Positions 10,512 to 54,590 of a stretch of DNA of 56,131 bases are shown piece after piece (position 1 is the first letter of the stretch; the number at the start of each line of letters is the position of its first letter). Location of the stretch: positions 1 through 56,131 of IMG/VR virus record IMGVR_UViG_3300031953_000014; one strand, 5' to 3'. The DNA comes from a virus (taxonomy: Duplodnaviria > Caudoviricetes). The translations under genes and the position numbers were made by a program. The notes under the pieces are model-generated. The model worked only from the letters and a program-made list of their open reading frames with translations, was not told the DNA's origin and ran no database searches.

Positions 10512-10958
10512 ATGCCAGGCACCCCGCGTAAGCAGTCTCCGAAGGTTCAGCCCGCAAAGGTTGTTCCCCCGGTGGCTGCAGAATCGTCTCCGGAAGTGGT
10601 GGAGCGGTTCAACGTACTCGACATTCTTGCAGTGGGCAGTGAAGAGCCGTATCCGATCACCTTGTTCGGTGTGGACGCTGAGGTTCGGCGCACATTCACT
10701 GGCGAGGATGCGGTTAAGTTTTTCGCATTGGCCGGCGAGAAGGACTACGAAACGCTTTTGACATTGATTACCAATAAGGGTTCCGAGTTGTGGGAGAAAA
10801 TTGGCGGGCTAAACGCCACCCAAGCTGCGGCAGTCCTCAACAAGGTGATCGAATTGTCAGGATTGTTTGAGGGGAAACTCTTAGCGCCTTTGCCTGCCTA
10901 CTCTCAGGGGATGGCTGGGGCGCAGCATACGCAGGTTTCCAGTCTCGCTACGGGCTAA
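10512..10958 (+). CDS. tail assembly chaperone (short form)
   Basis: between major tail and TMP; contains slippery GGGGAAA at 10871-10877. Confidence 0.8.
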   Translation: MPGTPRKQSPKVQPAKVVPPVAAESSPEVVERFNVLDILAVGSEEPYPITLFGVDAEVRRTFTGEDAVKFFALAGEKDYETLLTLITNKGSELWEKIGGLNATQAAAVLNKVIELSGLFEGKLLAPLPAYSQGMAGAQHTQVSSLATG

Positions 10959-11356
10959 ATCTGCGGGAAGTGTTGCGTGGGCGTGACTGGCGTGATGTGA
11001 GCGAACTGCTTCAACGGCTGCCAGGGGAGTGGTCGTTGGAGGCCGAGAATATGGCCATGTTTTTGGATCGGTTCGACTTCTTTTTGAACAGTGAGTATGC
11101 GTCGTGGACTGCTGATCCGAAGGATGAGAAGCAGCGTGCGGCAGATGCTGAGAGGCGTCGGCGGGATGGCCATAAGACTCCGCCGACGCCTCTCCTGTTT
11201 CCTGTGGCTTTGCGGCCGGATGATGTGTTGAAGGTCCGGTTTGATCAGTATGAGAAGCGGGTTGCTGAGTTTAAGCCGCCTGAGCGGTTGGGTGCTGGTG
11301 GTGGCAAGTTGGAGAATGTGAAGCCGCGTGATCTTGCGTCGCTGCTCGGTTTTTAG
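10871..11356 (+). CDS. tail assembly chaperone, -1 frameshift extension (fused to frame starting 10512)
   Basis: -1 frame open from 10874 (ETLSAFAC..RYGLNLREV) to 11356; standard G/GT arrangement. Confidence 0.75.
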   Translation, partial: GETLSAFACLLSGDGWGAAYAGFQSRYGLNLREVLRGRDWRDVSELLQRLPGEWSLEAENMAMFLDRFDFFLNSEYASWTADPKDEKQRAADAERRRRDGHKTPPTPLLFPVALRPDDVLKVRFDQYEKRVAEFKPPERLGAGGGKLENVKPRDLASLLGF

Positions 11357-11655: not shown

Positions 11656-11795
11656 TGTCCCGCGCCTTCACTTTAGGTCCGTTGCTTTGTGGTGACGGTA
11701 TCACAGTTGTTTTCAAAGTTCATAGAGATTGCTGAGCCGCGTCACTCCCATTGTGGGGGCTTTCAGGTTCCTTAAAGAGTTTGGTGGTGGTTATC

Positions 11796-14700
11796 CTGGC
11801 CGGCGGAGTCCTAGATATCGCGGTACGTCCTGATTTGAATGGATTCAACTCAGCACTAAACAGGGGGCTTTCTGGTGCGCTAAAGATTGGCGCATCGTTC
11901 GGTGTGGCATTTGGTGCCGCTACTGCGTTCTCTGAAATCATTACGCTCGGCAACGATCTAACTAACACGCTGAACACGATGCAGTCAGTGTCGTCTGCCA
12001 CTGCATCTGAGATGGCCGCGGTTTCTGACCGCGCTAAAGAGCTTGGTAACGATATTAGTTTGTCGAATACTTCGGCTACTGATGCTGCGGCGGCGATGAC
12101 GGAGCTTGCCAAGGGCGGGTTCTCTGTCCAAGAGGCTATGGATGGCGCTAAGGGTACGTTGCAGTTGGCTGCTGCGGCTGGGATTGATGCGGCTACTGCT
12201 GCGACTATTCAGTCTCAGGCGTTGCAGGCGTTCGGGTTGAGTGCGGATTATGCGGCTACTGCTGCCGATGTGTTGGCGAATGCGGCTAATGCTTCGTCTG
12301 CTGAGATCACGGATATTTCGTCGGGTTTGGCGCAGTCCGGCGCGGTCGCTAATCAGTTTGGTTTGACGATTGAGGACACGGCGGCGACGTTGGGTGTCCT
12401 CTCGAATGCCGGTATTGCTGGTTCTGATGCGGGAACACTGTTGAAGTCTGCACTGTTGTCGTTGACGGATCAGGGCAAGCCGGCGCAGGCGGCGATTGAA
12501 GAACTCGGTTTGACTGTGTATGACGCGCAGGGCCAGTTCATTGGCATGTCGTCACTGTTTGGTCAGTTGGATGAGGCTGCGGCGAGTATGACGCCTGAGC
12601 TTTACCAGGCTGCTACTGCGACTTTGTTCGGTTCGGATGCTATGCGTTTGGCTGGTGTGGCTGCTGAGCAGGGCCAGGCTGGTTACGACAAGATGCTTAC
12701 GGCTGTTGAGCGTCAGGGTGCGGCGGCTGAGGTTGCGGCTGCGAAGTCGAAGGGTCTACCGGGCGCGTTGGCTGGTATTCAGAACTCGGCTGAGACTTTG
12801 GCGCTTGAATTGTATGACTTGATTGATGGTCCGATGGAGGACTTTGCGAGGTCGGGCGCGGACAAGCTGACTGGTGCTACAGATGCCATTGTCGACGGGT
12901 TTAAGACAGTCGGTTCGGCGCTTGCCCCAGTGTTGTCGGTCGTGGGGTCTGCGGTGTCGGCATTCAGGTCACTGCCAGGGCCTGTACAGGTTGCTACGGC
13001 TGCGCTCGTGCTGCTCAAAACGACTGGCGTGGGTGCTGCTCTTGCAGGGGCGGTGACTGCGACTACTGCCGCGTTCAGCCGGTTCGGAACTGCCATGGCT
13101 GCGCAGGCGTTTAACGCTGCGGCGGCTGGCCGTTCAATGGGAGTGCTTGGTGCCGCGACTGCTGTTGTTAGTCAGCGGGTAGGCGGGGTATCTGGCGCGT
13201 TTAAGTCTATGGCTGGTGCGCTCGGTGGCCCGTGGATGATCGCGGCTGTCGCGGCGGCGGCATCCATCTATGCAATCAATAATGAGTTTAAGAATCTCCA
13301 GGCACAGCAGGACGCCATTTCAGGGTCGTCGCGGGATGTTAGTGCGGCGCAACGAGATATGTCGAAAGCGTTTCAGGAGTCGAATGGTGCAGTGTCGGAT
13401 CAGGTGCTTGGTGCTGTTGGTATGCAGATCGATTCGGTGCGTGAGAAGGCGAACAAGCTAGCAGAGAATGGTCCGGGCGCTTTCAGTATTTTCGCTGCGG
13501 CCGGGTCTGACATTAAAGGTTGGTTTAGTGGTGTTCTCCAGGCTGGCGGGGATGCGATGATTGCGCAGCAGGCGCTAGCTGATGAGGGCGCGAAGACTGA
13601 ATCGGGTCTGCGTAATCTCGGTAAGACTAATCAGGAAGTAGCTGCGGCTGTTTCTGGTTCTGATTCGGAGTGGAATGCGTTGGCTAACGGATTGCGAGGT
13701 ACTGCGGATGGCGGCGCGGAAGCGTTGTCGGAGTTGCAGCTGTTGCGTGACGAAATAGTCAAGGCTAGGGAGTCTGCAAAGAACACAACTCCGGGATTCT
13801 TTGATCTGAAGGATGCCGTCAAGGTTCTTTCGGATGAGTCATCCACTGCGACGGATCGTATCAATGCGATGAAGGTTGCGTTGGATGTCCTGTCGGGCAA
13901 GCCGATCCCATTGTCTGATGCGTTGCAGACTTACAACGATCAGGTGCGGGCGACGGCTGCGGCTACGTCGGATGTGTGGAATGCCGCTGATGGTTGGGGC
14001 GACGCCTTGGTTGGGCAGAATGGCGCGGTCAATACTGCGACCGCGAATGGATCTAAGCTCCGTGATGAATTGTTGGCGATGAAGGATGCCACGATTGCTG
14101 TTGCTGAGTCTGGCGGCGATTTGGGGCCGGTTTGGGCGCAAAACGATGAGAGTTTGCAGCGCCTGTCTAATTCGACTGGCGTGAGCGTTGCAGCGTTGCG
14201 GGCGATGATTGAGGCTGAAGGTCTCATTCCGAAAAACATTGAGATGCTTGCAGCTTTGCGCGGTGCGGACAGTGTTGTGCAACAGTTGGAAATCATCGGT
14301 GGGCTTTTGCGTGGCGTCGGGCAGCCTGTCGACATTCCGGTGGATGCTCTCACTGATGATGCTAAACGCAAGATCATTGAGGTTGGCGGCGTTGTCGAGA
14401 CTGACATTGAGGGCAAGCCTGGGATTGTGCGGATCACTGCACCCAACCAGGAAGCATTGGACGGTATCCGTGAGGTAACGGATGGACTGAACGGGTTGCC
14501 GCCGAATAAGTCGACACAGTTACAGGTTGATGGTGTTGGTGACGCGCTCAACAAGATTAGCGTTGTGCAGGGTGCGTTGAATCGTTTGAGTGATCCTCAG
14601 CCTAGGGCGCAGGTGCCGAAGTTGAATATTCCGACTCCTGGCGGCGCTCCGCTACCGGGTAGGGCTGATGGTGGCAGGTTGCCGACTACTGGCCCTGGCA

Positions 14701-16799
14701 CGTCTGTCACGGATGGCATTCTGGGTGTAGCAGCGTCTGGTATGCCGATTGCGCGTGTCGATGCCGGCGAATGGATCATCAACGGTAATTCTTCGCAGCA
14801 ATACAATCGCGAGCTGGCGATGATTAATGCGGGGACGTTCCCTAAGCTGCCTGGGTTCAATTCTGGCGGCATTGTGGGCAGCATGGAGGATTGGGTCAAC
14901 CAGGTCCAGCCTGGCATGTCTATGACTTCAGGGCAGCGTAACACGGATAATGGTTATCATTCGTCGGGTAATGCTGCCGATTTCTCTAATGGTAGTGGTA
15001 ATACGGATGAGCAGTTGTCGTTGGCGCAGACTATCGCGGCGGCATACCCGGATTCGTTGGAACTGATTTATGATGATCCGCGTTTTTATGGACAGGAGAT
15101 CAAGAATGGTGCCCCGGTTGATTCGTCATTTTATGATGGTGCTGGGGATCATACGAATCATGTTCATTGGGCGATGGGTTCTGCGCCTTCGTTGGGGATG
15201 GTTGATGGCGCGTATGCGCCGTTGTCTGACCGGGAGCAGGTCGCGCAGGCCATTATCGATGAGGGTAAGCGGCGCGGGATAACACCTAATGGCATTAAGG
15301 CTGCCGTGATGACGGGGTTGGCTGAGTCTGACCTGTCTGTTGTTGATGGTGGCCCTGATACGTCGACTGGCCCGTTTCAGCAGCAGGAGTCTTGGGGTTC
15401 TTATGAGGATCGTATGGACCCGACTGTTTCTGCTGGCAAGTTTTATGACCGGTTGGTCGAGTTTGATTACGACAGTATGGACCCGGCGGCGGCTGCGCAG
15501 CGTGTTCAGCAGTCGGCGTTTGCTGATGGCTCAAATTATGCGGTGAAGTCTGGTGAGGCTGACGGCATAATTGCGGCGTTGGATTCGCGGGGCGATTCTG
15601 TGGCGGTTGCCGAGAAGGGCTTTGAGGGTGCCGCTAATTCGAAGTGGGCAGAGAAAGACAAGCTCGCTCTCGACTCCGCAATGGTGGCCATCCGTCAGGC
15701 GCAGGAAGACCGAGACGCTGTCTACGCAGACGATAAGAAGTCGCAGGCAGATCGGGAGCAGGCGGACCTGAAGGTCAAGCAGGCTGAGGCCAAGGTCCGT
15801 GAGCTTGAAGCGGAACGCGATACGCCGACCGCAACGAAGGACACGGACGATAAGCGGCCGGCACCAAACGCACCCGAGCTGACAACTAATCTCAACGATG
15901 AGGAGATCAGTCTCAAGTCGGCGGAATTGGCAGTCGAGAAGGCACGCCTGTCACGCAATGAGGCATACGCAGAGGAAGGCGCTACTGAGGCTGACAAGCT
16001 CGATGCCGACTTGTCTTACCAACGCGCCAAGAACGCATTGGATGAGGAGCGTAAGAAGCAGTCTGAGGTCGGTAAGGATTCCGCTAAGGGGTCTGGGTCG
16101 TCTTCTCAGGGCACGGCATCTAACCCGGTAGACCTACTGGGCAATGTCGCTAAATCGTTCGTTACGGGACAGTTGAGTGACGCTTTAGGTGTGTTCGGGT
16201 TGTCGGATGATATGGGCAGTGTTGGCGCGCTGATTACGGCTATCGCTAATTACAAGTCTGTTCCTATCGAGGGTGCACCTGAAGGTAAAACTAAGGGTTC
16301 CGAATCTGATAGCAAAGACTCGGTGCCTGGCGTTAATGCCGCTAACGGCTTGCAAGCTTTGTTCGGTGGCCAGTTCACTGAGGAGTTTCGGAAGTCGTTT
16401 GGCGCGGAGGAAGATTCCGCGTTGGTCGGGAAAGTTTTCGATGGCCGCGAGTGGCTGAAGAAGATGGAAGCTGGTCTTCGGGTGCCTACTGTTTTGCGCG
16501 ATATGGGCGGACCACTGCCTCACGGTATGGCTGCACTGAATATGTCGGGTGACACCGAGCATGTGTATACGGGCAAGCAGAACAAGGACATGTTCAAGGA
16601 ATTGGCTTCTATCCGTTCGTCGGTGGGCAGTAATGGTGGTGGCGGATTGAATATGAGTGAGTTCACGAAACAGGTCGACAGGTTGGCGGAAAACTCGTCA
16701 CGCCCGAATGTCACCTATCACACGGACAGTATCGCGGCGGCTATGCGTGAAGACCGTGTGCGGCAAACACAACAGTCCCTAACTTATTCCCGGAGGTGA
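11796..16799 (+). CDS. tape measure protein with C-terminal peptidoglycan-hydrolase-like motifs; start uncertain (CTG 11796 or GTG/TTG 11781-11787)
   Basis: ~1670 aa Ala-rich; TP901-type TMP core; YHSSGNAADF..HTNHVH and AES..GPFQQ..WG..AQRVQQSAF motifs. Confidence 0.93.
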   Translation: MAGGVLDIAVRPDLNGFNSALNRGLSGALKIGASFGVAFGAATAFSEIITLGNDLTNTLNTMQSVSSATASEMAAVSDRAKELGNDISLSNTSATDAAAAMTELAKGGFSVQEAMDGAKGTLQLAAAAGIDAATAATIQSQALQAFGLSADYAATAADVLANAANASSAEITDISSGLAQSGAVANQFGLTIEDTAATLGVLSNAGIAGSDAGTLLKSALLSLTDQGKPAQAAIEELGLTVYDAQGQFIGMSSLFGQLDEAAASMTPELYQAATATLFGSDAMRLAGVAAEQGQAGYDKMLTAVERQGAAAEVAAAKSKGLPGALAGIQNSAETLALELYDLIDGPMEDFARSGADKLTGATDAIVDGFKTVGSALAPVLSVVGSAVSAFRSLPGPVQVATAALVLLKTTGVGAALAGAVTATTAAFSRFGTAMAAQAFNAAAAGRSMGVLGAATAVVSQRVGGVSGAFKSMAGALGGPWMIAAVAAAASIYAINNEFKNLQAQQDAISGSSRDVSAAQRDMSKAFQESNGAVSDQVLGAVGMQIDSVREKANKLAENGPGAFSIFAAAGSDIKGWFSGVLQAGGDAMIAQQALADEGAKTESGLRNLGKTNQEVAAAVSGSDSEWNALANGLRGTADGGAEALSELQLLRDEIVKARESAKNTTPGFFDLKDAVKVLSDESSTATDRINAMKVALDVLSGKPIPLSDALQTYNDQVRATAAATSDVWNAADGWGDALVGQNGAVNTATANGSKLRDELLAMKDATIAVAESGGDLGPVWAQNDESLQRLSNSTGVSVAALRAMIEAEGLIPKNIEMLAALRGADSVVQQLEIIGGLLRGVGQPVDIPVDALTDDAKRKIIEVGGVVETDIEGKPGIVRITAPNQEALDGIREVTDGLNGLPPNKSTQLQVDGVGDALNKISVVQGALNRLSDPQPRAQVPKLNIPTPGGAPLPGRADGGRLPTTGPGTSVTDGILGVAASGMPIARVDAGEWIINGNSSQQYNRELAMINAGTFPKLPGFNSGGIVGSMEDWVNQVQPGMSMTSGQRNTDNGYHSSGNAADFSNGSGNTDEQLSLAQTIAAAYPDSLELIYDDPRFYGQEIKNGAPVDSSFYDGAGDHTNHVHWAMGSAPSLGMVDGAYAPLSDREQVAQAIIDEGKRRGITPNGIKAAVMTGLAESDLSVVDGGPDTSTGPFQQQESWGSYEDRMDPTVSAGKFYDRLVEFDYDSMDPAAAAQRVQQSAFADGSNYAVKSGEADGIIAALDSRGDSVAVAEKGFEGAANSKWAEKDKLALDSAMVAIRQAQEDRDAVYADDKKSQADREQADLKVKQAEAKVRELEAERDTPTATKDTDDKRPAPNAPELTTNLNDEEISLKSAELAVEKARLSRNEAYAEEGATEADKLDADLSYQRAKNALDEERKKQSEVGKDSAKGSGSSSQGTASNPVDLLGNVAKSFVTGQLSDALGVFGLSDDMGSVGALITAIANYKSVPIEGAPEGKTKGSESDSKDSVPGVNAANGLQALFGGQFTEEFRKSFGAEEDSALVGKVFDGREWLKKMEAGLRVPTVLRDMGGPLPHGMAALNMSGDTEHVYTGKQNKDMFKELASIRSSVGSNGGGGLNMSEFTKQVDRLAENSSRPNVTYHTDSIAAAMREDRVRQTQQSLTYSRR

Positions 16800-16802
16800 T
16801 TC

Positions 16803-17699
16803 GTGCCTGTAACTCAAGTATCAGTTGAAGGATTCAACGGAAACGAATGCATTCTCGCGGGGGATGGGGAAGGCGACCTTGGGGCTTTCCTGCTAACGGA
16901 TGTCGAGGGCATCTATGACGCTCCGGTGGAGACGATTAGAAACTCGCATGCGTTTCAGATTGGCTCCGATTTCGGCGGGCTCCGCAACTTGGAGCGCGTC
17001 GTCGTATTCGGTGTGTTGATTGATACGTCGAATGGGTCAACGTGGCAGGAGAATGATTCGGAGTTTCGGAAACTTTGGTCTTATACGAAGGATTCGAAAC
17101 TGTGGATTGAGACTGAGGATTCGCGCCGCTATTTGAAGGTTCGTTTGCGTGAGCAGCCGGACTTTAAGCCACAGTTTGATCCTAATCAGAATCGGATCAA
17201 TACGGTGACGTTGACGTTGGTTGCTGGCGATCCGTGGTGGTATGACTCGGAGGATGTTGATACGTGGGTTTCCACGGTCGACACATCGGACGGGTCTACC
17301 ACCACGGGCACTGTGACGGTGTCCAATCCGACTGACAATCCGATTTGGCTGAAGTGGATGATCCAGGCACCGGGCAAGCCGACATTGCCGGACTTTTCGT
17401 TTGGCGATGACAGGTTTGAGCGTGGCCTCATTGATGCTGACCGCCAGATTGTGATGCCTGAGCTGATGGCTGGCGAGCATGTCCGTGTCGATACGGACGA
17501 GCAAGCTAATGGCGGGCAGTGTGTGTCGTCTATTGATTCCGCGTATTACATGCGGATGGGTGGTGTGACGTTCTGTTATCCACTGCCTGCGTATACGGAT
17601 GAAATGGTGTTGCCGGTTGCGATGTCTCGTGCGCCGGCGGGTGTGGGGATTCAGGTTCGGTGCGAGCGTCCATTTTCGCGTCCGTTTGGGCTTTTGTGA
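16803..17699 (+). CDS. minor tail protein (distal tail, Dit-like)
   Basis: first gene after TMP; VSNPTDNPIWLKW, LPDFSF, RPFSRPFGL motifs. Confidence 0.85.
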   Translation: MPVTQVSVEGFNGNECILAGDGEGDLGAFLLTDVEGIYDAPVETIRNSHAFQIGSDFGGLRNLERVVVFGVLIDTSNGSTWQENDSEFRKLWSYTKDSKLWIETEDSRRYLKVRLREQPDFKPQFDPNQNRINTVTLTLVAGDPWWYDSEDVDTWVSTVDTSDGSTTTGTVTVSNPTDNPIWLKWMIQAPGKPTLPDFSFGDDRFERGLIDADRQIVMPELMAGEHVRVDTDEQANGGQCVSSIDSAYYMRMGGVTFCYPLPAYTDEMVLPVAMSRAPAGVGIQVRCERPFSRPFGLL

Positions 17700-17713: not shown

Positions 17714-19406
17714 GTGACTGTTGTTGAGACTATAGATTTTGATGCTGAGTTTGCTGCGATTTCTGCCCGGTTGGAGCGGGAGAAGGAGCGTCGGCTGATT
17801 CCTCCTCTTATTCGTTTGTGGGATGGGGATTGGAATTTGCGGGGCGAGTGCCACCGCGAAAATTCGGCTAACTTCCAGTTTTTGGATAACGAGACTGGCA
17901 CTGGCCAGATTGAGATGCCGTTGGACTATTATTTGTCGCGGTGGCTTGCTGATATTCATTTGCGTCCTACGACTAACGTGTTTGCGACTGTCGAAAAAGA
18001 TGGTGCGCGTTGGTCTGGGATGATGGATGAGTTGAAGATCATCAAGAATGATGATGGTTCGAAGGTTGTGCGGGTTTTGTTTAAGCATGACTATGAGCAT
18101 TTGAAGCATATCATTGTGTGGGCTAACCCCTTTGCCTGCGCCCCCAACTTTGGCTAGTTGGGGGCGCAGGCAAAGGGCCTGATTCTTACCTGCGGAAATA
18201 CAGTTTCCGCGTACGTGGATGTGTTTTGGTCGCGCCAGGTGGGCGTTGAAAACAACGCTGATGGTGAACATTATGCGGCTCGAATCGAGTTTGTGGATGT
18301 TGCCGGATAATCCGATGGACCCTGCCGGCTGGTTCAATTTCGATCAGTCGACGTGGTCGCAGGTTGTGAAGCCTGAGACGACGGTGGATCGTAGTGTTGG
18401 CGCGATTGTGCATGGCCGTTTCAAGTATATGCATGATGTGTCGAAGAAGGTTGCGGCGGACGGCCAGTTGTCGTGGGAGCCGCGCCGCTATCTGGATGGT
18501 GATGAGCCACCGTGGGAGGGTGCTGATCTTCGTCACGGGTGTCTTGTGTGGGATCTGGTGGATAAGTCGGCGTTTACGACTGGTACGTCTTTTGGTGGCA
18601 ACATTTTTGCGGGTCTTTTCCGTGAGCTTATCAATATTGGTGGCGATGGTAAGACTGAGAATGTTGAGCAGGTTGATGATCCGAATGTTCCGGGCGAGTA
18701 TTTTGTTCCGAAGTTTCGTGGGACTGTGCCGTCGATGCCGGGTGTTGTGTATCGGGAGTCTGAGCATACTGGTATTCAGTCGTCTGAGTTTAGTCATAAG
18801 CCTGCTACTGATGTGGGGACTGTGGCTGGTGGGCATTCGATGCCTGGTGTTAATGAACTGATTTCTGCGGGTATTCAGATGGTCGGGGATTTGACTGCGA
18901 TGATTCCGGGTGTGCCACCTTTGGGTGGTGTTGCGGATGCAATCTTGAAGCCGCTTTATACGGATGTGTTTCTGGCGTTCGGTAAGTGGAAGTCTCCGCA
19001 GAGGGCGCAGCGGTTGGGTTGGTCTCACTACCACGAGAAGTGGGGTGAAGGCGCAGACCGGGCGTACACGCTGTCGTACCTGTTGGCGCAGCGTACCGCC
19101 ATGTATCAGACCCGCGAAGTGAACCGTTGCACACTGACGGTGGCGGATGGTGCACCGTGGAATATCGGCCAAAATGGGCACGGCCACTTCTTTATCGGGG
19201 ACCGTGTCGGTTTCACCATTCTCGGTATGGAGCCTGGCCGCATTTTTGTGGAGCAGGTTACTGAGTTGACGTTGGCTTGGGATCGTTCGTCTAGTCCTAC
19301 GTGGACTATTCAGATTGGGCAGCGTGAGCCTCAAGATCCGATCATTAAGGCGATTGAGGAAATTCAGGACATTGTTTCGATGCTGAACGAGTTGGGTTTG
19401 GTCTAG
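17714..19406 (+). CDS. minor tail/baseplate hub protein split by a 52-nt insertion (parts 17714-18133 and 18186-19406)
   Basis: PLIRLWDGDW N-terminus; WANPF in frame 1 continues as FLPAEIQFPRTW in frame 2; GHFFIGDRVGF near C-terminus. Confidence 0.85.
18128..18177. repeat. perfect 22-bp inverted repeat with 6-nt loop inside the minor tail gene
   Basis: CCCTTTGCCTGCGCCCCCAACT-TTGGCT-AGTTGGGGGCGCAGGCAAAGGG. Confidence 0.97.
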
Positions 19407-33684: not shown

Positions 33685-33944
33685 TGGGCATCAAATGGGC
33701 ACACTTTGGGCACAAATGATGTACGAATCGAATGGATGTTCGAGGATAAGATGGGACCAACGTGTGGCCTAGCCTGCACGTTTGCCACATAACCGCAGGT
33801 CATGGTAGCTAAAATGTTGTCGTTCGCATCGAGAAGGTCAGGGGTTCGATTCCCCTCAGCTCCACCCTTAAAACCGCAGGTCAAGCCCCACTTCCGTTAA
33901 CGCGGGGTGGGGCACTTTTTTTGTTTGGGCACAATTTGGGCACA
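33685..33944. other. attP: common core 33820-33866 (3' half of tRNA-Ala, CGC anticodon) with arm-type TGGGCACA repeats
   Basis: TCGTTCGCATCGAGAAGGTCAGGGGTTCGATTCCCCTCAGCTCCACC; TGGGCA(CA) at 33685, 33696, 33707, 33926, 33937 (11-bp spacing); AACCGCAGGTCA on both sides of core. Confidence 0.85.
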
Positions 33945-35074
33945 CTTGCTTTCGCTGCGTCATCGAGGGCTGCCGCTACAGCTTCCAGATCGTCGGGGAA
34001 TAAGTCGGCGTAAGTGTCGAGGGTCATCGCTGCGGACTTGTGGCCGAGCATCGTCTGAACTGCTTTCACATTGGCTCCTGCACTGATCGCGAGGGACGCG
34101 GCGGTGTGCCGTAGATCGTGAACGGTGACGGTCGGAAACTCGGGTGTGACCGCTGCCCCTCGGCGCTCTTCCTGCTGCCTGATTCGGATGCTACGGCCTT
34201 TACAGCGAGCTACCGCAAGATTGTAGATGCGGGGTCGGTACGTGGAGACACGGAGTATCCCGCCAAGCTCACCCATGAACACGAGTTCGTCACGGCCCTT
34301 GCCTGTCATGAGTGGCGCGAGCATGTCGCTGAGAAATGCGGGGTAGGGGACTGTGCGGCGTTCATGGTTTTTGACGTTCCCCCAGATGATTTGTCCGTGG
34401 ACTTCGGATACGGCTTCGGTGATGTTGATGCGCCGGCGGAGCATGTCGAATGATCGAACTTTCAAGCCTGCCATTTCTCCCCATCGCAAGCCTGTGTATG
34501 CGAGGAAGAGGATCACTACACCGTGTGTGGTGACTTCTGCGGCGAGTTCGTGGGCTTGCTGGTGTGTGAGGTAGCCGCGTTGTGTGTGGCGTCTGCGGGG
34601 GGCTTTGATGTTGGCGCACGGATTTTTGGCGATGACGTTATCTTCGTCAGCTGCTGCGAGGATCTGTCGGAGTACGCCTAACGCTTTTTCGATGGTGGCT
34701 GTGCCTGTCCCTGCTTTTTCGAGTCCTGATACCCATGCGCGTACGTCGGATGGTCTGATGTCGCCGGCTGCTCGGGTTCCCCAGTGGTCGCGGATGTGCG
34801 CGTTGTATGCGGATTCGGTGTTGACGGTGGTTGATGCGGTTAGTCCGCTCCGGTTGGTGAGCCACACGTCGGCGAGAGCGTCGATGGTGATTTTCCCTGA
34901 TGTGGGGTCTACGTAGTCGCCGGACAGTTTTTTGACTTCGATGGTGTTGCCGAATGCTTCTGCTGCACGTTTGGTGGTGAAGCCTCGTTTTTTGGTGGGT
35001 TTGCCGTCTGGTTTGCGGTATCGGACCATGTATCGCTTGCCTGCGGCTGTGTCGTAGGGCTCGATGGTTGCCAT
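33881..35074 (-). CDS. int: tyrosine integrase
   Basis: TGLRWGE, HDLRHT, LGHKSAAMTLDTY catalytic motifs; N-terminal arm-binding domain. Confidence 0.95.
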   Translation of the reverse strand: MATIEPYDTAAGKRYMVRYRKPDGKPTKKRGFTTKRAAEAFGNTIEVKKLSGDYVDPTSGKITIDALADVWLTNRSGLTASTTVNTESAYNAHIRDHWGTRAAGDIRPSDVRAWVSGLEKAGTGTATIEKALGVLRQILAAADEDNVIAKNPCANIKAPRRRHTQRGYLTHQQAHELAAEVTTHGVVILFLAYTGLRWGEMAGLKVRSFDMLRRRINITEAVSEVHGQIIWGNVKNHERRTVPYPAFLSDMLAPLMTGKGRDELVFMGELGGILRVSTYRPRIYNLAVARCKGRSIRIRQQEERRGAAVTPEFPTVTVHDLRHTAASLAISAGANVKAVQTMLGHKSAAMTLDTYADLFPDDLEAVAAALDDAAKASVPKLCPNKKSAPPRVNGSGA

Positions 35075-43560: not shown

Positions 43561-43739
43561 ATGCTGTACTGGGTGTCTGGGAATGGGCAACATTCATTGC
43601 GGGGCTCATTGCGGGCACGGTGACAGTCGGCGCAATGCTCCTCGATGTCAACAATGTCCGAATGATCGTGTACGGCTACATGGCGATGTGGTGTTGCTGG
43701 TGGACGTTCCTCATCCTGATCATCGCGAATGGCACGTAA
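43557..43739 (+). CDS. small 2-TM membrane protein
   Basis: hydrophobic; coupled. Confidence 0.55.
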   Translation: MNAVLGVWEWATFIAGLIAGTVTVGAMLLDVNNVRMIVYGYMAMWCCWWTFLILIIANGT

Positions 43740-44064
43740 GACTGGCCCGGACAAGCAGACAGTAGAGCTTGTCCGGGCCAGAAGTGGCGGCATCTGCGAA
43801 CGCTGCGGATGGCACGAAGGACAACAGTTACATCACCGCAGGGCTCGCGGCATGGGATCGACACGGCGCGAATCAACAAACGCAGTCTACTCACTCGTGG
43901 ACTTATGCCACCCATGCCATGCACACATCGAATCACACCGCACCGAAGCATTAGATGACGGTTGGCTTGTCACACAGTATTGCGATCCTGCCTGGATTCC
44001 TGTGAATGCGCGTGGAACATGGAAGCTATTAGATGCGTTGGGGGGATACCAGTTGCCGGATTGA
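43729..44064 (+). CDS. HNH endonuclease
   Basis: RSGGICERC..LHHRRARGMG..N..LCHPCH. Confidence 0.85.
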   Translation: MARKTGPDKQTVELVRARSGGICERCGWHEGQQLHHRRARGMGSTRRESTNAVYSLVDLCHPCHAHIESHRTEALDDGWLVTQYCDPAWIPVNARGTWKLLDALGGYQLPD

Positions 44065-52728: not shown

Positions 52729-53376
52729 ATGAGTGACAACGTAGATCATCCAAGCCACTACACCTCGCACCCCAGCGGCGTTGAGTGCATCCAAATCACT
52801 GAGTATATGAATTTCAATATCGGCAATGCGATGAAGTATTTGTGGCGCGCTGGTTTAAAGTCGGATGATCCTCGTGAGGATTTGATGAAAGCGCGTTGGT
52901 ACGCCGATAGGGAGCTGAGGCGGCTTGATGGGATGCCTGTTCCTGCCCCTGTGGAGGCTCCTGTGGCGCGTGTATTCAATGTTGGTGACCCTGAACCTGC
53001 GGATAGGGAAACCATCGTACTGCGCGGCAATCGGCGCGACATGGACGTGCGGATCAGTTACGGCAAAGGCGGGTCGGGTGTCAACCTGACTGCATGGTGG
53101 TGCGTGGGGGATGATCCACGCTATAGCTCGCATGGGTCATGGAGTTACTGGCTCGAAAATTATGGGCCGCTCATTGAAGTTACCGAGGATGCTCCGAAGG
53201 TGGCTCGCCTGCCGCGCGTATTCGATTCTTTCGAGGATATTCCATCCGATGTGGACCTTGTATCTGATTGCGATGGCGATACGTGGGGCCGCAATGGGGT
53301 TCGTAGCAGCATGTGCGGATGGCTAACAGCCGCATGGGATGACAGCGCGCCGTTCACTGAAGTCCTAACACCCTAA
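52729..53376 (+). CDS. DUF3310-like protein with two C-terminal repeated modules
   Basis: DNVDHPSHYTSHPSGVECIQI..FNIGNAMKYLWRAGLK..EDLMKARWY. Confidence 0.82.
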   Translation: MSDNVDHPSHYTSHPSGVECIQITEYMNFNIGNAMKYLWRAGLKSDDPREDLMKARWYADRELRRLDGMPVPAPVEAPVARVFNVGDPEPADRETIVLRGNRRDMDVRISYGKGGSGVNLTAWWCVGDDPRYSSHGSWSYWLENYGPLIEVTEDAPKVARLPRVFDSFEDIPSDVDLVSDCDGDTWGRNGVRSSMCGWLTAAWDDSAPFTEVLTP

Positions 53377-53441
53377 ACATTCCTCAGCGGGGGCAGGCCA
53401 TACACGCGTCTGCCCCCGCCACCCTGCACGATAGGACACAC

Positions 53442-54590
53442 ATGAAATACCGCACCAACCGAGAAGACTTCGCCAACGCAACCGCATGGGTAGCAAGACA
53501 ACTCCCCAACCGCCCACCAACACCCATCATGGCCGGCATCCTCATCAAAGCGGAAGGGAACACACTCACCCTTGCCGGCTTCGACTACGAAACATCCACA
53601 CAAGTAACCGTGTCCGCTGAGATTGATACAGAAGGCAGCATTGTTGTTTCAGGTAAACTGCTAGCCGACATTAGCAAAAGTCTGCCCAGTAAGCCGCTGG
53701 ACGCCAGCATGGACGGCAATACGCTCACGCTGAAGTGTGGTGCATCGAAGTTTACGTTGCCAACCATGAACGTAGAAGACTATCCGACCTTGCCTCTGTT
53801 GCCAGTCAATTCAGGTTCGGTGGACGCCGACGTGTATGCGCAGGCTATCGCCCAAGTATCCATCGCGGCAGGTAGGGATGAAACGCTGCCAATGCTGACG
53901 TGCGTGAAAGTGGAAGTCGAAGGCGACAAAATTACACTTGCGGCGACTGACAGGTTCCGTCTCGCAATCCGCGAACTCTCATGGACTCCCGGACCATACG
54001 TTGCAGAACAACTATCGGCACTCGTCCCCGCCAAAACATTAACCGACACAGCAAAAAGCGTTACAGGTAGTGATGTTGCGTTAGCTATCGGCGGCGACTC
54101 TGGCCTATTCGGGTTCATCGCGGACGGCCGGCAAGTCACCACACGGATGGTCGATGCAGAGTTTCCGAAGTTTAGGCAGTTGATTCCGGCGCAGCATGAT
54201 TCGTTGGCGGTGGTGGAGATCGGGCCGCTTGTGGATGCGGTGAAGCGTATGTCGGTGGTTGCGGAACGTGGCGCGCAAGTCCGGCTCGCGTTCGATGGGG
54301 AGACTGTCACATTGTCGTCGGGTGGCGCGGAGGGGTCGGGTGAGGAGTCTTTGCCGGCTGTCATTTCGGGGCCGGGGTTGACGATAGCGTTCAATCCGAC
54401 ATACCTCACTGAATCGTTGGGTGCGGTTGATGGTGATTATGTGCAGCTCGGGTTCACGAAGCCTGGTCGTCCTGCGATCATTCAGGTGTCGGAGGGTGAG
54501 ATTGCGGAGGGCGATGGGCCGTTCCCTGCGTCGTATGGTTCTCACGTACAACTTTTGATGCCTGTCCGTATGCCGGACACCCTCGCGTGA
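53442..54590 (+). CDS. dnaN: DNA polymerase III beta sliding clamp
   Basis: 382 aa; GFDYETS, AAGRDETLPMLT, AATDRFRLA, IAFNPTYL, LLMPVR. Confidence 0.95.
   Translation: MKYRTNREDFANATAWVARQLPNRPPTPIMAGILIKAEGNTLTLAGFDYETSTQVTVSAEIDTEGSIVVSGKLLADISKSLPSKPLDASMDGNTLTLKCGASKFTLPTMNVEDYPTLPLLPVNSGSVDADVYAQAIAQVSIAAGRDETLPMLTCVKVEVEGDKITLAATDRFRLAIRELSWTPGPYVAEQLSALVPAKTLTDTAKSVTGSDVALAIGGDSGLFGFIADGRQVTTRMVDAEFPKFRQLIPAQHDSLAVVEIGPLVDAVKRMSVVAERGAQVRLAFDGETVTLSSGGAEGSGEESLPAVISGPGLTIAFNPTYLTESLGAVDGDYVQLGFTKPGRPAIIQVSEGEIAEGDGPFPASYGSHVQLLMPVRMPDTLA

What the first reader, a model, noticed from the sequence alone, without database searches (positions are those of the whole stretch)
18119..18221. 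52-nt hairpin coding gap in a core tail gene: candidate programmed translational bypass (or mini-intron)
Seen: the minor-tail/hub frame reads W-A-N-P-F (TTT 18131-18133), runs into a perfect 22-bp stem (18128-18177) and stops at TAG (18155-18157) at the top of the stem. The other frame has TGA (18180-18182), then TTC(F)-TTA-CCT-GCG-GAA-ATA-CAG-TTT-CCG (FLPAEIQFP) and 400 further intact codons. Removing 52 nt restores WANPFLPAEIQFP, which I recall as contiguous in actinophage minor tail homologs. The gap is flanked by matched Phe codons (UUU/UUC, one tRNA). An SD-like AAAGG (18172-18176) lies 6 nt before the landing codon, the resume codon is the rare UUA, and a second hairpin GCGGAAA-TACAG-TTTCCGC (18192-18210) lies just downstream. 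Established: T4 gene 60 bypasses 50 nt using matched codons, a stop in a hairpin, a mini-SD and a 3' stem-loop. Unlike gene 60, the stop here is 8 codons past the proposed take-off; a second UUU (18149) is an alternative take-off. Inference: ribosome hopping, RNA-level removal or DNA-level excision gates tail assembly.
Basis: partly seen in the sequence, partly recalled or inferred. Interest (0 to 1): 0.88.

Follow-up and report, generated by a model that had tools for sequence, protein, structure and literature searches.

The report
Hairpin coding gap in tail gene
A 52-base hairpin splits an essential phage tail gene, and similar hairpins sit at the same conserved spots of this gene in many related prophages whose genes selection still keeps intact, which suggests that ribosomes hop over them.

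Summary
A perfect 22-bp hairpin (18128-18177) lies in a 52-nt insertion that splits a Sipho_Gp37-type tail hub gene. A 95%-identical homologue and a closely related metagenome contig lack it; contigs of three sequencing runs carry it.

It is not a one-off. I found 13 more GC-rich hairpin gaps of 46-55 nt in the same gene of other prophages, at four conserved sites. About 24 database proteins are truncated N-fragments of the same kind, many named Nocardia.

All 14 elements share one geometry:
- The take-off codon lies at the 5' base of the stem.
- A C4-6:G4-6 clamp lies at +9 to +15.
- The landing codon matches the take-off codon in at least 2 of 3 positions and lies a few bases past the stem.

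The stems keep pairing through compensatory changes. They hold 32 G·U pairs against 2 C·A mismatches, so the sense RNA is what is selected. Three carriers form a clade that diverged to dS>1 at dN/dS 0.03-0.13. The 21 startless codons after their gap show no nonsynonymous change.

Best reading: a mobile family of translational bypass ("hop") elements, unrelated in sequence to T4 gene 60. There are no RNA or protein data, so this is unproven.

The parts
17714..18133 (+). N-terminal coding segment of the tail hub (Sipho_Gp37-like minor tail) gene, up to and including the proposed take-off codon
   Evidence: ORF 17714..18157. Pfam PF14594 profile 2-104, E 5.9e-31. phrog_110 minor tail protein.
18131..18133 (+). 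Proposed take-off codon UUU (Phe), 3 nt inside the 5' base of the stem
   Evidence: Last residue shared with uninterrupted homologues. Same position in 6 of 6 site-A elements.
18128..18177 (+). Perfect 22-bp hairpin with 6-nt loop
   Evidence: In the alignment of five site-A elements, 99.1% of 110 cells are paired and 7 of 22 pairs have compensatory changes.
18134..18185 (+). 52-nt coding gap (absent from close relatives), counted to the end of the landing codon
   Evidence: length. Absent in L026 and in the X4 contig.
18141..18145 (+). C5 run, paired with the G5 run 18160-18164: a G:C clamp at +11..+15 from the first base of the take-off codon
   Evidence: in 14 of 14 elements a C4-6 run starts at +9 to +12 and ends at +14 or +15.
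18155..18157 (+). TAG, the 0-frame stop at the loop/stem boundary, 8 codons after the take-off codon
   Evidence: Its position is not conserved in the family.
18172..18177 (+). AAAGGG: complement of the Pro-Phe codons at the stem base, and SD-like, 5 nt before the landing codon
   Evidence: AAGGG is invariant in the five aligned site-A elements; G621 has AAAGAG.
18180..18182 (+). TGA in the landing frame, directly 5' of the landing codon
   Evidence: a stop in this position in 5 of 6 site-A elements (TGA three times, TAG, TAA) and in none of the other 8 elements.
18183..18185 (+). Proposed landing codon UUC (Phe), 5 nt after the 3' base of the 22-bp stem
   Evidence: [quoted passage not shown]
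18186..19406 (+). C-terminal coding segment. Resume codon UUA 18186-18188, stop 19404-19406. There is no ATG, GTG or TTG before 18219.
   Evidence: Pfam PF14594 profile 103-369, E 5.6e-71. 95% identity to L026.

Best explanation
The 52 nt belong to a family of small, mobile, GC-rich hairpin 'coding-gap' elements. These elements live at a few highly conserved sites of the Sipho_Gp37-like tail hub gene of temperate phages of Mycobacteriales (many carriers are named Nocardia). They are most likely skipped during translation.

Proposed mechanism (inferred, not shown):
1. The ribosome melts the lower stem and brings UUU 18131-18133 into the P site.
2. The remaining upper stem, whose C-run:G-run clamp then sits at +11..+15 at the mouth of the mRNA channel, blocks further unwinding and A-site tRNA binding.
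3. Peptidyl-tRNA(Phe) lets go of UUU. The mRNA slides while the stem re-forms.
4. The tRNA re-pairs with UUC 18183-18185, a few bases past the stem, possibly helped by AAAGGG pairing with the 16S rRNA 3' end.
5. Decoding resumes at UUA 18186, giving one hub protein of about 546 aa.

Shown: the insertion, its structure, its recurrence, the covariation, the G·U bias on the sense strand, and purifying selection on interrupted genes. Inferred: that the skipping is translational, and every step of the mechanism. The hub is expected to be a low-copy virion protein (from general knowledge of siphovirus tail tips, not tested here). An inefficient hop could therefore be tolerated, which would explain why the elements persist in this gene.
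For: 1. The insertion is real. Contigs of three runs carry it, while a 95%-identical homologue and a closely related metagenome contig lack it.

2. It recurs.
- Of 79 IMG/VR loci found with the C piece, 4 carry 5 hairpin gaps: L016, L021 (two), L025, L004.
- Two more, L117 and L122, came from a pattern scan.
- In 301 bacterial genomes of one family, 83 have the gene and 5 of these (G621, G243, G678, G600, G485) carry a gap. G691 came from a genus sample.
- 27 short proteins match the N fragment. About 24 of them break off at these sites, 19 right after NPF.

3. All 14 elements share one geometry.
- Length is 46-55 nt.
- The take-off codon lies 0-3 nt inside the 5' stem base in 13 of 14.
- A C4-6 run ends at +14 or +15 in 14 of 14.
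- The landing codon lies 5-8 nt past the stem in 12 of 14.
- The landing codon is cognate in 6 of 14 and matches 2 of 3 positions in the other 8.
- All 5 in-frame elements contain in-frame stops.

4. The RNA structure is under selection.
- In five site-A elements 99.1% of 110 cells pair, 7 of 22 pairs show compensatory changes, and 0 of 500 shuffles reach the covariation score.
- The stems hold 254 Watson-Crick pairs and 32 G·U pairs, against 2 C·A and 1 U·C internal mismatches.
- The sense strand folds better than the antisense strand in 11 of 14.

5. Carriers are functional.
- L016, L021 and L117 form a clade (SH-aLRT 96) in which all three are carriers.
- Their genes have dS 1.1-5 and dN/dS 0.03-0.13 on both sides of the gap.
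- The 21 codons after the gap have no start codon before them and differ by 9-12 synonymous and 0 nonsynonymous codons.
- Their elements are about as diverged as the genes (counted by eye).

6. The elements are mobile and site-specific.
- The site-A element occurs in at least three separate places of the hub tree.
- CCC TTT encodes Pro-Phe in all six site-A carriers and in 0 of 76 non-carrier loci.
- No copy was found outside this gene.

7. Mechanistic precedent.
- In gene 60 the take-off codon is part of a stem-loop and an SD-like motif lies 6 nt before the landing site (PMC5009743, passages).
- Imperfect take-off/landing matches are known in mitochondrial bypassing.
Against: 1. There are no RNA or protein data for any carrier. 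Translation across the gap is inferred only.
2. The codon after the take-off codon is an ordinary sense codon (GCC here; GNN in all 14). Gene 60, the mitochondrial byps and phiHau3 have a stop, rare or unassigned codon there.
3. For UUU to reach the P site, about half of a 22-bp GC-rich stem must already be melted. Why the ribosome would not simply go on is unexplained.
4. Eight of 14 landing codons are only near-cognate. Some mismatch at the first or middle position.
5. All carriers found are proviruses, bacterial genomes or metagenome contigs. Blastn with four element variants found none in 50,697 GenBank phage records, so no plaque-forming carrier is known.
6. The window's own insertion is recent: it is absent from the closely related X4 contig. 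The evidence for selection comes from other carriers, not from this phage.
7. Similar flanking codons could partly reflect how the element inserts (short target duplication) rather than tRNA re-pairing.
8. The G·U count rests on MFE folds, which favour G·U pairs. Only 1x1 internal mismatches were counted as the alternative.
Confidence: 0.6

Rival explanations
1. RNA-level removal (a mini-intron). The hairpin marks the transcript for cutting and rejoining, so a mature mRNA without the 46-55 nt is translated normally.
For: It would explain selection on a sense-strand RNA hairpin, intact and selected downstream codons, and independence from frame and from 0-frame stops. No tool here could look at RNA, because the one read-laying run went to DNA contigs.
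Against: - The piece to be removed is placed asymmetrically on the stem: it starts about 6 nt inside the 5' base and ends 8-11 nt beyond the 3' base. This does not look like a cut by a duplex-specific nuclease.
- It would not need the last triplet of the gap to resemble the take-off codon, yet 14 of 14 do in at least 2 of 3 positions.
- From general knowledge I know of no bacterial system that splices out such hairpins.
- Rfam gives only sub-threshold generic hairpin matches, the best 27.5 bits against a gathering score of 45.
Confidence: 0.12
2. In this window the insertion is simply a recent inactivating hit by a selfish hairpin element. The hub gene is dead and the phage is defective, whatever happens in other carriers.
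For: - The insertion is absent from a closely related contig (X4) and from L026, so it is young, and no selection can be read from the window itself.
- No carrier was found among isolated phages.
- The A-site codon is an ordinary GCC, and the 0 frame ends at TAG after 7 more codons.
Against: - The window's element has every family feature in its best form: cognate UUU/UUC, clamp at +11..+15, AAAGGG, and TGA before the landing codon.
- Related elements persisted through dS>1 in genes at dN/dS 0.03-0.13.
- The same sequence with 0 differences is in contigs of three runs from three studies, two of which may be the source. The contig runs unbroken across the integrase region, so the DNA was not integrated there (inference).
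- All other large structural ORFs are open.
Confidence: 0.12
3. Split gene. The N fragment terminates and the C fragment is made separately, by re-initiation at or near the 'landing' codon behind the SD-like AAAGGG. The two pieces then assemble.
For: - AAAGGG plus a 5-7 nt spacer is the geometry of a ribosome binding site. In L117 the codon there is TTG.
- A stop lies just before it in 5 of 6 site-A elements.
- L004 has an in-frame ATG inside its gap.
Against: - The codon at that place is TTC, TTA or CTC in 5 of 6 site-A elements. The next canonical start here is ATG 18219, which would drop 12 conserved residues.
- In L016 and L021 no ATG, GTG or TTG precedes the 21 strongly selected codons.
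- L021 would need three pieces, one of them 21 aa long.
- Site-D elements have no SD-like motif before the resume codon.
Confidence: 0.06
4. DNA-level excision. The palindrome is lost at some frequency (slippage or hairpin processing), and only the revertant subpopulation makes tails. This would be a phase-variation-like switch.
For: An uninterrupted allele exists in a closely related population (X4). Long perfect palindromes are known from general knowledge to be unstable in DNA.
Against: - Older elements are not perfect DNA palindromes. They keep pairing through G·U, which is a mismatch in DNA, and through compensatory changes.
- The flanking repeats are only 2-3 nt long.
- The X4 allele differs at the junction (TTG where the window has TTC TTA), so it is not a simple precise deletion of the 52 nt.
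- Contigs cannot show minor variants, so this was not tested directly.
Confidence: 0.05
5. Assembly or sequencing artefact: a spurious palindrome.
For: None beyond the general suspicion that attaches to perfect palindromes.
Against: It is present with 0 differences in Logan contigs of three runs. Homologous elements occur in many independent genomes and assemblies.
Confidence: 0.01

Closest known systems
Phage T4 gene 60 bypass ('hop') cassette and its homologues in topoisomerase genes of T4-like phages
   Same: - A gap of about 50 nt inside an essential, conserved gene, inserted at invariant residues.
[quoted passage not shown]
- The take-off codon is part of a stem-loop.
- An SD-like motif lies 5-6 nt before the landing codon.
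- Repeated independent insertion at the same site, with uninterrupted close relatives (abstract and section 16 of bioRxiv 2022.08.31.505936; PMC5009743 passages).
   Different: - No sequence similarity.
- No adjacent homing endonuclease gene; the neighbours here are Dit-like and minor tail genes.
- The stem is 14-23 bp long and GC-rich instead of a short tetraloop hairpin.
- There is no stop or rare codon next to the take-off codon.
- No nascent-peptide signal could be identified.
- Several sites of one gene are hit, and the hosts are Actinomycetes.
Byps: translational bypassing elements in Magnusiomyces capitatus mitochondria
   Same: - Short inserts that disrupt the frame, many per genome, up to 12 in one coding sequence.
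- They are skipped in translation.
- Imperfect take-off/landing matches with two-out-of-three pairing (PMC5009743 and PMC10732093 passages).
- That these inserts are GC-rich, hairpin-forming and mobile is recalled from Lang 2014 and Nosek 2015, which I did not read.
   Different: - Mitochondrial ribosomes and genetic code, with an unused codon in the A site.
- Byps are spread over 12 of 15 genes. The elements here were found only in one phage gene, at fixed conserved sites, and with a fixed C:G clamp position.
Streptomyces phage phiHau3 terminase: candidate UUA-triggered bypass
   Same: An actinophage structural or packaging gene with non-coding blocks. A stem-loop and an internal SD have been proposed as signals, and a rare UUA is involved (PMC10732093 passages).
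   Different: There the gaps are 7-10 nt and UUA is the hungry A-site codon at take-off. Here the gap is 52 nt, and UUA is the resume codon, present in only 3 of 6 site-A carriers.
Frameshift-stimulating stem-loops (dnaX, HIV gag-pol)
   Same: A stable stem at the mouth of the mRNA channel, 11-12 nt from the P-site codon, stalls the ribosome and hinders A-site tRNA binding (PMC7282821 passages). The C:G clamp here lies at +9..+15.
   Different: Those cause a 1-nt slip on a slippery heptamer. Here the frame change is 46-55 nt and there is no slippery run.
Inteins and homing introns in phage structural genes
   Same: Selfish elements that sit at the most conserved sites of essential genes and are removed after transcription. 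One relative (L066) carries a mini-intein-like insert in this same gene, 9 residues from site D.
   Different: These elements are 50 nt long, encode nothing, contain stops and change the frame. They would be removed neither as protein nor, as far as known, as RNA.

Membership tests
Programmed translational bypass element (functional class) | A non-coding gap inside an ORF, whose removal restores a conserved contiguous protein | tested here: met
   removing 52 nt restores WANPFLPAEIQFPR. The two pieces abut at this junction in 75 of the 78 viral loci that hold both pieces.
Programmed translational bypass element (functional class) | Take-off and landing codons readable by the same peptidyl-tRNA | tested here: met
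   UUU and UUC in the window. In the family 6 of 14 are cognate and 8 of 14 match 2 of 3 positions.
Programmed translational bypass element (functional class) | A stop, rare or unassigned codon in the A site at take-off | tested here: not met
   The next codon is GCC (125 uses in 14 window ORFs). All 14 elements have GNN sense codons there. G678 fits only under an alternative reading (GCC followed by TAG).
Programmed translational bypass element (functional class) | An mRNA structure that includes the take-off codon and is conserved by covariation | tested here: met
Programmed translational bypass element (functional class) | One polypeptide made from the two ORFs | not testable with these tools
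   Only indirect evidence: dN/dS 0.03-0.13, and 0 nonsynonymous changes in the 21 startless codons after the gap in three carriers.
T4 gene 60 / MobA cassette (homologous family) | Sequence homology of the gap, a topoisomerase host gene, an adjacent mobA-type endonuclease, and a KKYK-type nascent peptide | tested here: not met
   The host gene is a tail hub. The neighbours are tail genes. The only HNH gene in the window is at 43729-44064. The gap sequence is GC-rich and was not compared base by base with gene 60, because no gene 60 sequence was fetched. The nascent peptide was not assessed.
Intrinsic transcription terminator | A GC-rich hairpin followed by a U-tract, at the end of a transcription unit | tested here: not met
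   The scan did not call it, and there is no T-run after 18177. It lies inside a conserved ORF.
MITE / REP-like dispersed repeat | Many copies dispersed in one genome, mostly between genes | tested here: not met
   - No second copy in the window.
- No other gap-like hairpin in four phage records.
- Collection scans with element cores returned only this gene or unrelated terminators.
- The host chromosomes of the carriers were not scanned as wholes.
Group I / II intron or known RNA family | A match to a curated covariance model, or a catalytic core | tested here: not met
   Rfam: 8 matches, all far below the gathering scores and all generic hairpins. 52 nt is too short for a catalytic core.
Intein | An in-frame insert without stops that encodes a Hint domain | tested here: not met
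   52 nt is not a multiple of 3, and there is a TAG inside.

The most novel reading that the evidence does not exclude
These hairpins are a new and widespread family of bacterial 'translational introns'. They are site-specific selfish elements of about 50 nt that spread between phage tail hub genes. [quoted passage not shown] With dozens of natural variants at five sites, they would be the first large natural series of bypass signals for a bacterial ribosome outside the T4 gene 60 lineage. They might also throttle hub synthesis, and so tail assembly.
Probability: 0.45. Interest if true: 0.92.

Novelty: new variant of a known kind. Interest (0 to 1): 0.85.

Why it matters
Efficient long-range ribosome bypassing on bacterial ribosomes is so far known from one lineage only, T4 gene 60 and its homologues, plus one short-range candidate in a Streptomyces phage. 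The 2016 recoding review notes that counterparts were long presumed to exist elsewhere (PMC5009743 passage).

If the reading is right, it offers the following:
- A second, unrelated and much more varied family: 14 elements seen at DNA level and about 24 more at protein level, at five sites.
- A simple shared geometry that can be mutated and tested in reporters.
- A different trigger, a structural roadblock instead of a stop or hungry codon.

There is also a practical consequence for annotation. These tail genes are currently filed as two short 'Gp37-like' or hypothetical proteins and may be taken for broken prophages.

My searches found no paper that describes these elements. Supplements were not available and could list candidates I did not see.

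Tried and rejected
- Megablast of the gene against GenBank phages: no match.
- Exact scans for the window's hairpin: none in viral contigs and none in metagenome contigs.
- Core-only scans: 2 hits in genome contigs and 16 in viral contigs. All are unrelated terminator-like hairpins with different outer arms.
- K-mers of the insertion elsewhere in the window: nothing longer than 11 nt, so no internal source for it.
Together with the 12 viral loci, 92 matches were folded; only four viral ones were strong hairpins, and none of the listed metagenome loci was. This says nothing about absence.
- The search for related loci with the L016 and L025 proteins gave only 2 and 3 loci.
- A class-wide sample of 401 genomes: 16 have PF14594 and none has a hairpin gap; G032 has a plain frameshift.
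- Blastn of four element variants against isolated phages matched only the coding flanks.
- My first ORF-break test for other gap elements recovered only 1 of the 5 known elements in those four records and was replaced by the listing.
- The candidate second gap at window 43742-43781 is an in-frame hairpin inside an HNH gene.
- An idea that the palindrome arose by fold-back copying of the target was dropped once homologous elements turned up in other genes' flanks.
- The careful tree search did not finish, so the quick tree was used.
- X4's Pro codon at 18128-18130 cannot be read.
Full report
**1. The observation**

The window is a whole IMG/VR virus record of 56,131 bases, classed as linear, with a CheckV completeness estimate of 94%. 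Gene order runs from large terminase through portal, capsid and tape measure (11751-16799) to a Dit-like protein (16803-17699). Then comes the gene in question, followed by further tail genes, an endolysin and, in the middle of the record, an integrase on the minus strand (33881-35074).

- The 0 frame reads …IIVWANPF, with TTT at 18131-18133.
- A perfect 22-bp stem spans 18128-18149 and 18156-18177 around a 6-nt loop.
- TAG lies at 18155-18157.
- In the other frame, TGA 18180-18182 is followed by TTC TTA CCT… and 407 open codons.

The hairpin is the longest of 13 inverted repeats in the window. As RNA, the region folds at z = -6.68 against shuffles.

**2. It is an insertion in one gene**

The two pieces are the two parts of one Pfam family, PF14594 Sipho_Gp37: profile positions 2-104 and 103-369. 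In Rhodococcus phage REQ3 they abut in one frame and share the Phe codon. L026, 95% identical, reads IIVWANPFLPAEIQFPR without a break. Of the 78 IMG/VR loci that hold both pieces, 75 are contiguous at this junction.

Logan contigs of three runs carry the hairpin with 0 differences; two of these runs may be the source of the record and the third is from another study. A 418-nt contig of a fourth run has few differences, skips 18134-18188 and has TTG there. So the insertion is real, it is recent in this lineage, and it is polymorphic among close kin.

**3. It is one of a family**

The three loci that were not contiguous (L016, L021, L025) each have a GC-rich hairpin of about 50 nt at or near the same place. 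L021 has two. L004 has one further downstream, in frame but with a stop in its loop.

A pattern built from the shared ends of the first three site-A elements found two more carriers, L117 and L122. Both have complete N and C pieces.

In a sample of 301 bacterial genomes of one family, 83 have the gene. Five of these (G621, G243, G678, G600, G485) carry such a gap. A sample of 27 genomes of the genus of G621 added G691. In that genus, 4 of the 7 genomes with the gene are carriers.

A search with the 147-aa N fragment, restricted to proteins of similar length, returned 27 short proteins:
- 19 run through NPF into a short out-of-frame tail, often ending 8 codons later as in the window.
- 3 break after …HILCW.
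- 2 break after the next conserved motif.
- Many are named by their sources as Nocardia proteins.

By my reading of these results the elements occupy five sites: W|ANPF, NPF|LP (site A, the window's site), W|(I/V)LF, WCL|KTTL and SMPGV|NELIS (site D). All five lie in conserved motifs.

**4. Shared anatomy**

- The 14 elements seen at DNA level are 46-55 nt long, and every residue of length modulo 3 occurs.
- All five in-frame elements contain in-frame stops.
- The last codon shared with intact homologues lies 0-3 nt inside the 5' base of the stem in 13 of 14.
- A run of 4-6 C, paired with a G run, starts at +9 to +12 and ends at +14 or +15 from the first base of that codon in 14 of 14.
- The last triplet of the gap lies 5-8 nt beyond the 3' base of the stem in 12 of 14.
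- That triplet is cognate with the first codon in 6 of 14 and agrees with it in two of three positions in the other 8.
- At site D the landing triplets are TTG, GTC, GCC, GTC, GCG and TTC, against take-off codons GTG, GTT, GTC, GTC, GTG and GTC. The mismatch therefore moves between positions, which a fixed short target duplication would not produce.

Site-A elements have further features of their own:
- Pro-Phe is encoded by CCC TTT in all six carriers and in 0 of 76 non-carrier loci.
- AAGGGCCT follows the stem in the five aligned elements; G621 differs by one base.
- A stop in the landing frame lies directly before the landing codon in 5 of 6.

**5. Selection on the RNA**

In the alignment of five site-A elements, 99.1% of 110 cells pair. 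Seven of 22 pairs have changes on both sides. None of 500 shuffles reaches the covariation score, and structures slid by 1-3 columns fall to 41-59% pairing.

Over all 14 stems there are 254 Watson-Crick pairs and 32 G·U pairs, against 2 C·A and 1 U·C internal mismatches. The sense strand folds better than the antisense strand in 11 of 14; the three exceptions are the near-perfect palindromes, the window's among them. A decaying DNA palindrome should give G·T and A·C mismatches about equally often, so the structure is kept in the sense RNA. One caveat applies: the helices come from MFE folds, which allow G·U pairs.

**6. Selection on interrupted genes**

On a quick tree of 81 hub sequences, L016, L021 and L117 form a clade (SH-aLRT 96) in which all three are carriers. 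Their sister, L017, is not a carrier. The window pairs with the non-carrier L026, and L122 pairs with the non-carrier L015.

Within the carrier clade, dS is 1.1-5 and dN/dS is 0.03-0.13 on both sides of the gap. The three elements differ from one another about as much as the genes do (counted by eye). Vertical descent of the element is therefore the simplest reading.

The 21 codons right after the gap are not preceded by any ATG, GTG or TTG in their frame in L016 and L021. In L021 they lie between its two elements. They differ by 9-12 synonymous codons and by no nonsynonymous codon among the three carriers.

These codons are therefore translated, in continuity with nothing that a normal start could provide. 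This is the strongest argument that carriers make a functional product. It also argues against the split-gene reading.

**7. Mobility**

The site-A element sits in at least three separate places of the tree. The elements of the window and of L122 share their basal parts, although the two genes are only about 52% identical in protein. The element is always accompanied by CCC TTT.

No copy was found outside this gene:
- not in the window;
- not in four whole phage records;
- not in collection scans with element cores.

No endonuclease gene adjoins the hub gene here. How the elements move is unknown. Gene conversion between related prophages is my guess.

**8. How it most likely works**

Translational bypassing is the one known process that joins two ORFs across such a gap. 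It uses a take-off codon that forms part of a stem-loop, a matching landing codon and, in gene 60, an SD-like motif 6 nt before the landing site (PMC5009743 passages; bioRxiv 2022.08.31.505936 abstract and section 16).

The constant position of the C:G clamp fits a roadblock at the mouth of the mRNA channel. [quoted passage not shown] This would replace the stop or hungry codon that the known systems use. All of this is inference.

What speaks against it:
- the ordinary A-site codon;
- the need to melt half of a very stable stem first;
- the many near-cognate landing codons;
- the lack of any carrier among isolated phages;
- the total lack of RNA or protein data.

RNA-level removal is the main rival. 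It explains the RNA selection equally well, but not the codon resemblance or the asymmetric position of the gap on the stem.

**9. What is known, and novelty**

The elements work like gene 60 and like the mitochondrial byps, but they are not members of the gene 60 cassette family: the host gene is different, there is no mobA-type neighbour, there is no stop at take-off, and the sequence is GC-rich. They are not terminators, not a known Rfam family, not dispersed repeats and not inteins.

Five literature searches found no description of them. The nearest items are:
- the phiHau3 terminase work (PMC10732093, passages);
- remarks on possible bypassing in Corndog tmp (PMC4351075, passages);
- remarks on possible bypassing in Bxb1 primase (PMC12646305, passages).

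Supplements were closed. Lang 2014 and Nosek 2015 were not read; I know them only through citations and review passages.

**10. Verdict**

I rate it a new variant of a known kind, of high interest to the recoding field and easy to test.

Noticed in passing
L066:3718-4173 (IMGVR_UViG_2772190757_000004): The same hub gene carries an in-frame insert of about 150 aa. It starts with Cys, ends in His-Asn and is followed by Thr, so it looks like a mini-intein. It lies 9 residues after hairpin site D. The gene appears to be a hot spot for selfish elements.
   Followed up: partly
window 43742-43781: A perfect 15-bp hairpin with a 10-nt loop lies inside the 5' end of an HNH endonuclease ORF (43729-44064). 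It is in frame for that ORF, while the stop of the upstream ORF falls in its loop. It is not a coding gap.
   Followed up: yes
window 11150-11194: A perfect 15-bp inverted repeat with a 15-nt spacer lies in the stretch between a chaperone-like ORF (10512-10958) and the tape measure gene. It could relate to the usual chaperone frameshift or be a regulatory site.
   Followed up: no
window 1-56131: The gene order is that of a virion-form genome: terminase at the left end and integrase in the middle. The 41,797-nt run contig covers window positions 295-42091 without a break at the integrase region. So the DNA in those runs was not integrated there, although the phage encodes an integrase.
   Followed up: partly
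L113:1288-1297 and L108 (G032:C54) around 1461-1478: Two other homologues have plain frameshifts without any hairpin. These are ordinary breaks or sequencing errors, unlike the elements described in this report.
   Followed up: partly
window 53387-53419: A 12-bp GC-rich hairpin lies between two tandem ORFs (52729-53376 and 53442-54590). Its G run comes first and its C run second. It is terminator-like and intergenic.
   Followed up: no
P0027: One short N fragment ends in a peptide that looks like translated sequencing adapter at a contig end. It is an artefact and not a carrier.
   Followed up: no
window 18186-18188 and the same position in relatives: The rare Leu codon TTA (12 of 6965 codons in 14 window ORFs) is the resume codon in 3 of 6 site-A carriers, but stands at that position in only 2 of 76 non-carrier loci. 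It may travel with the element; its meaning is unknown.
   Followed up: partly
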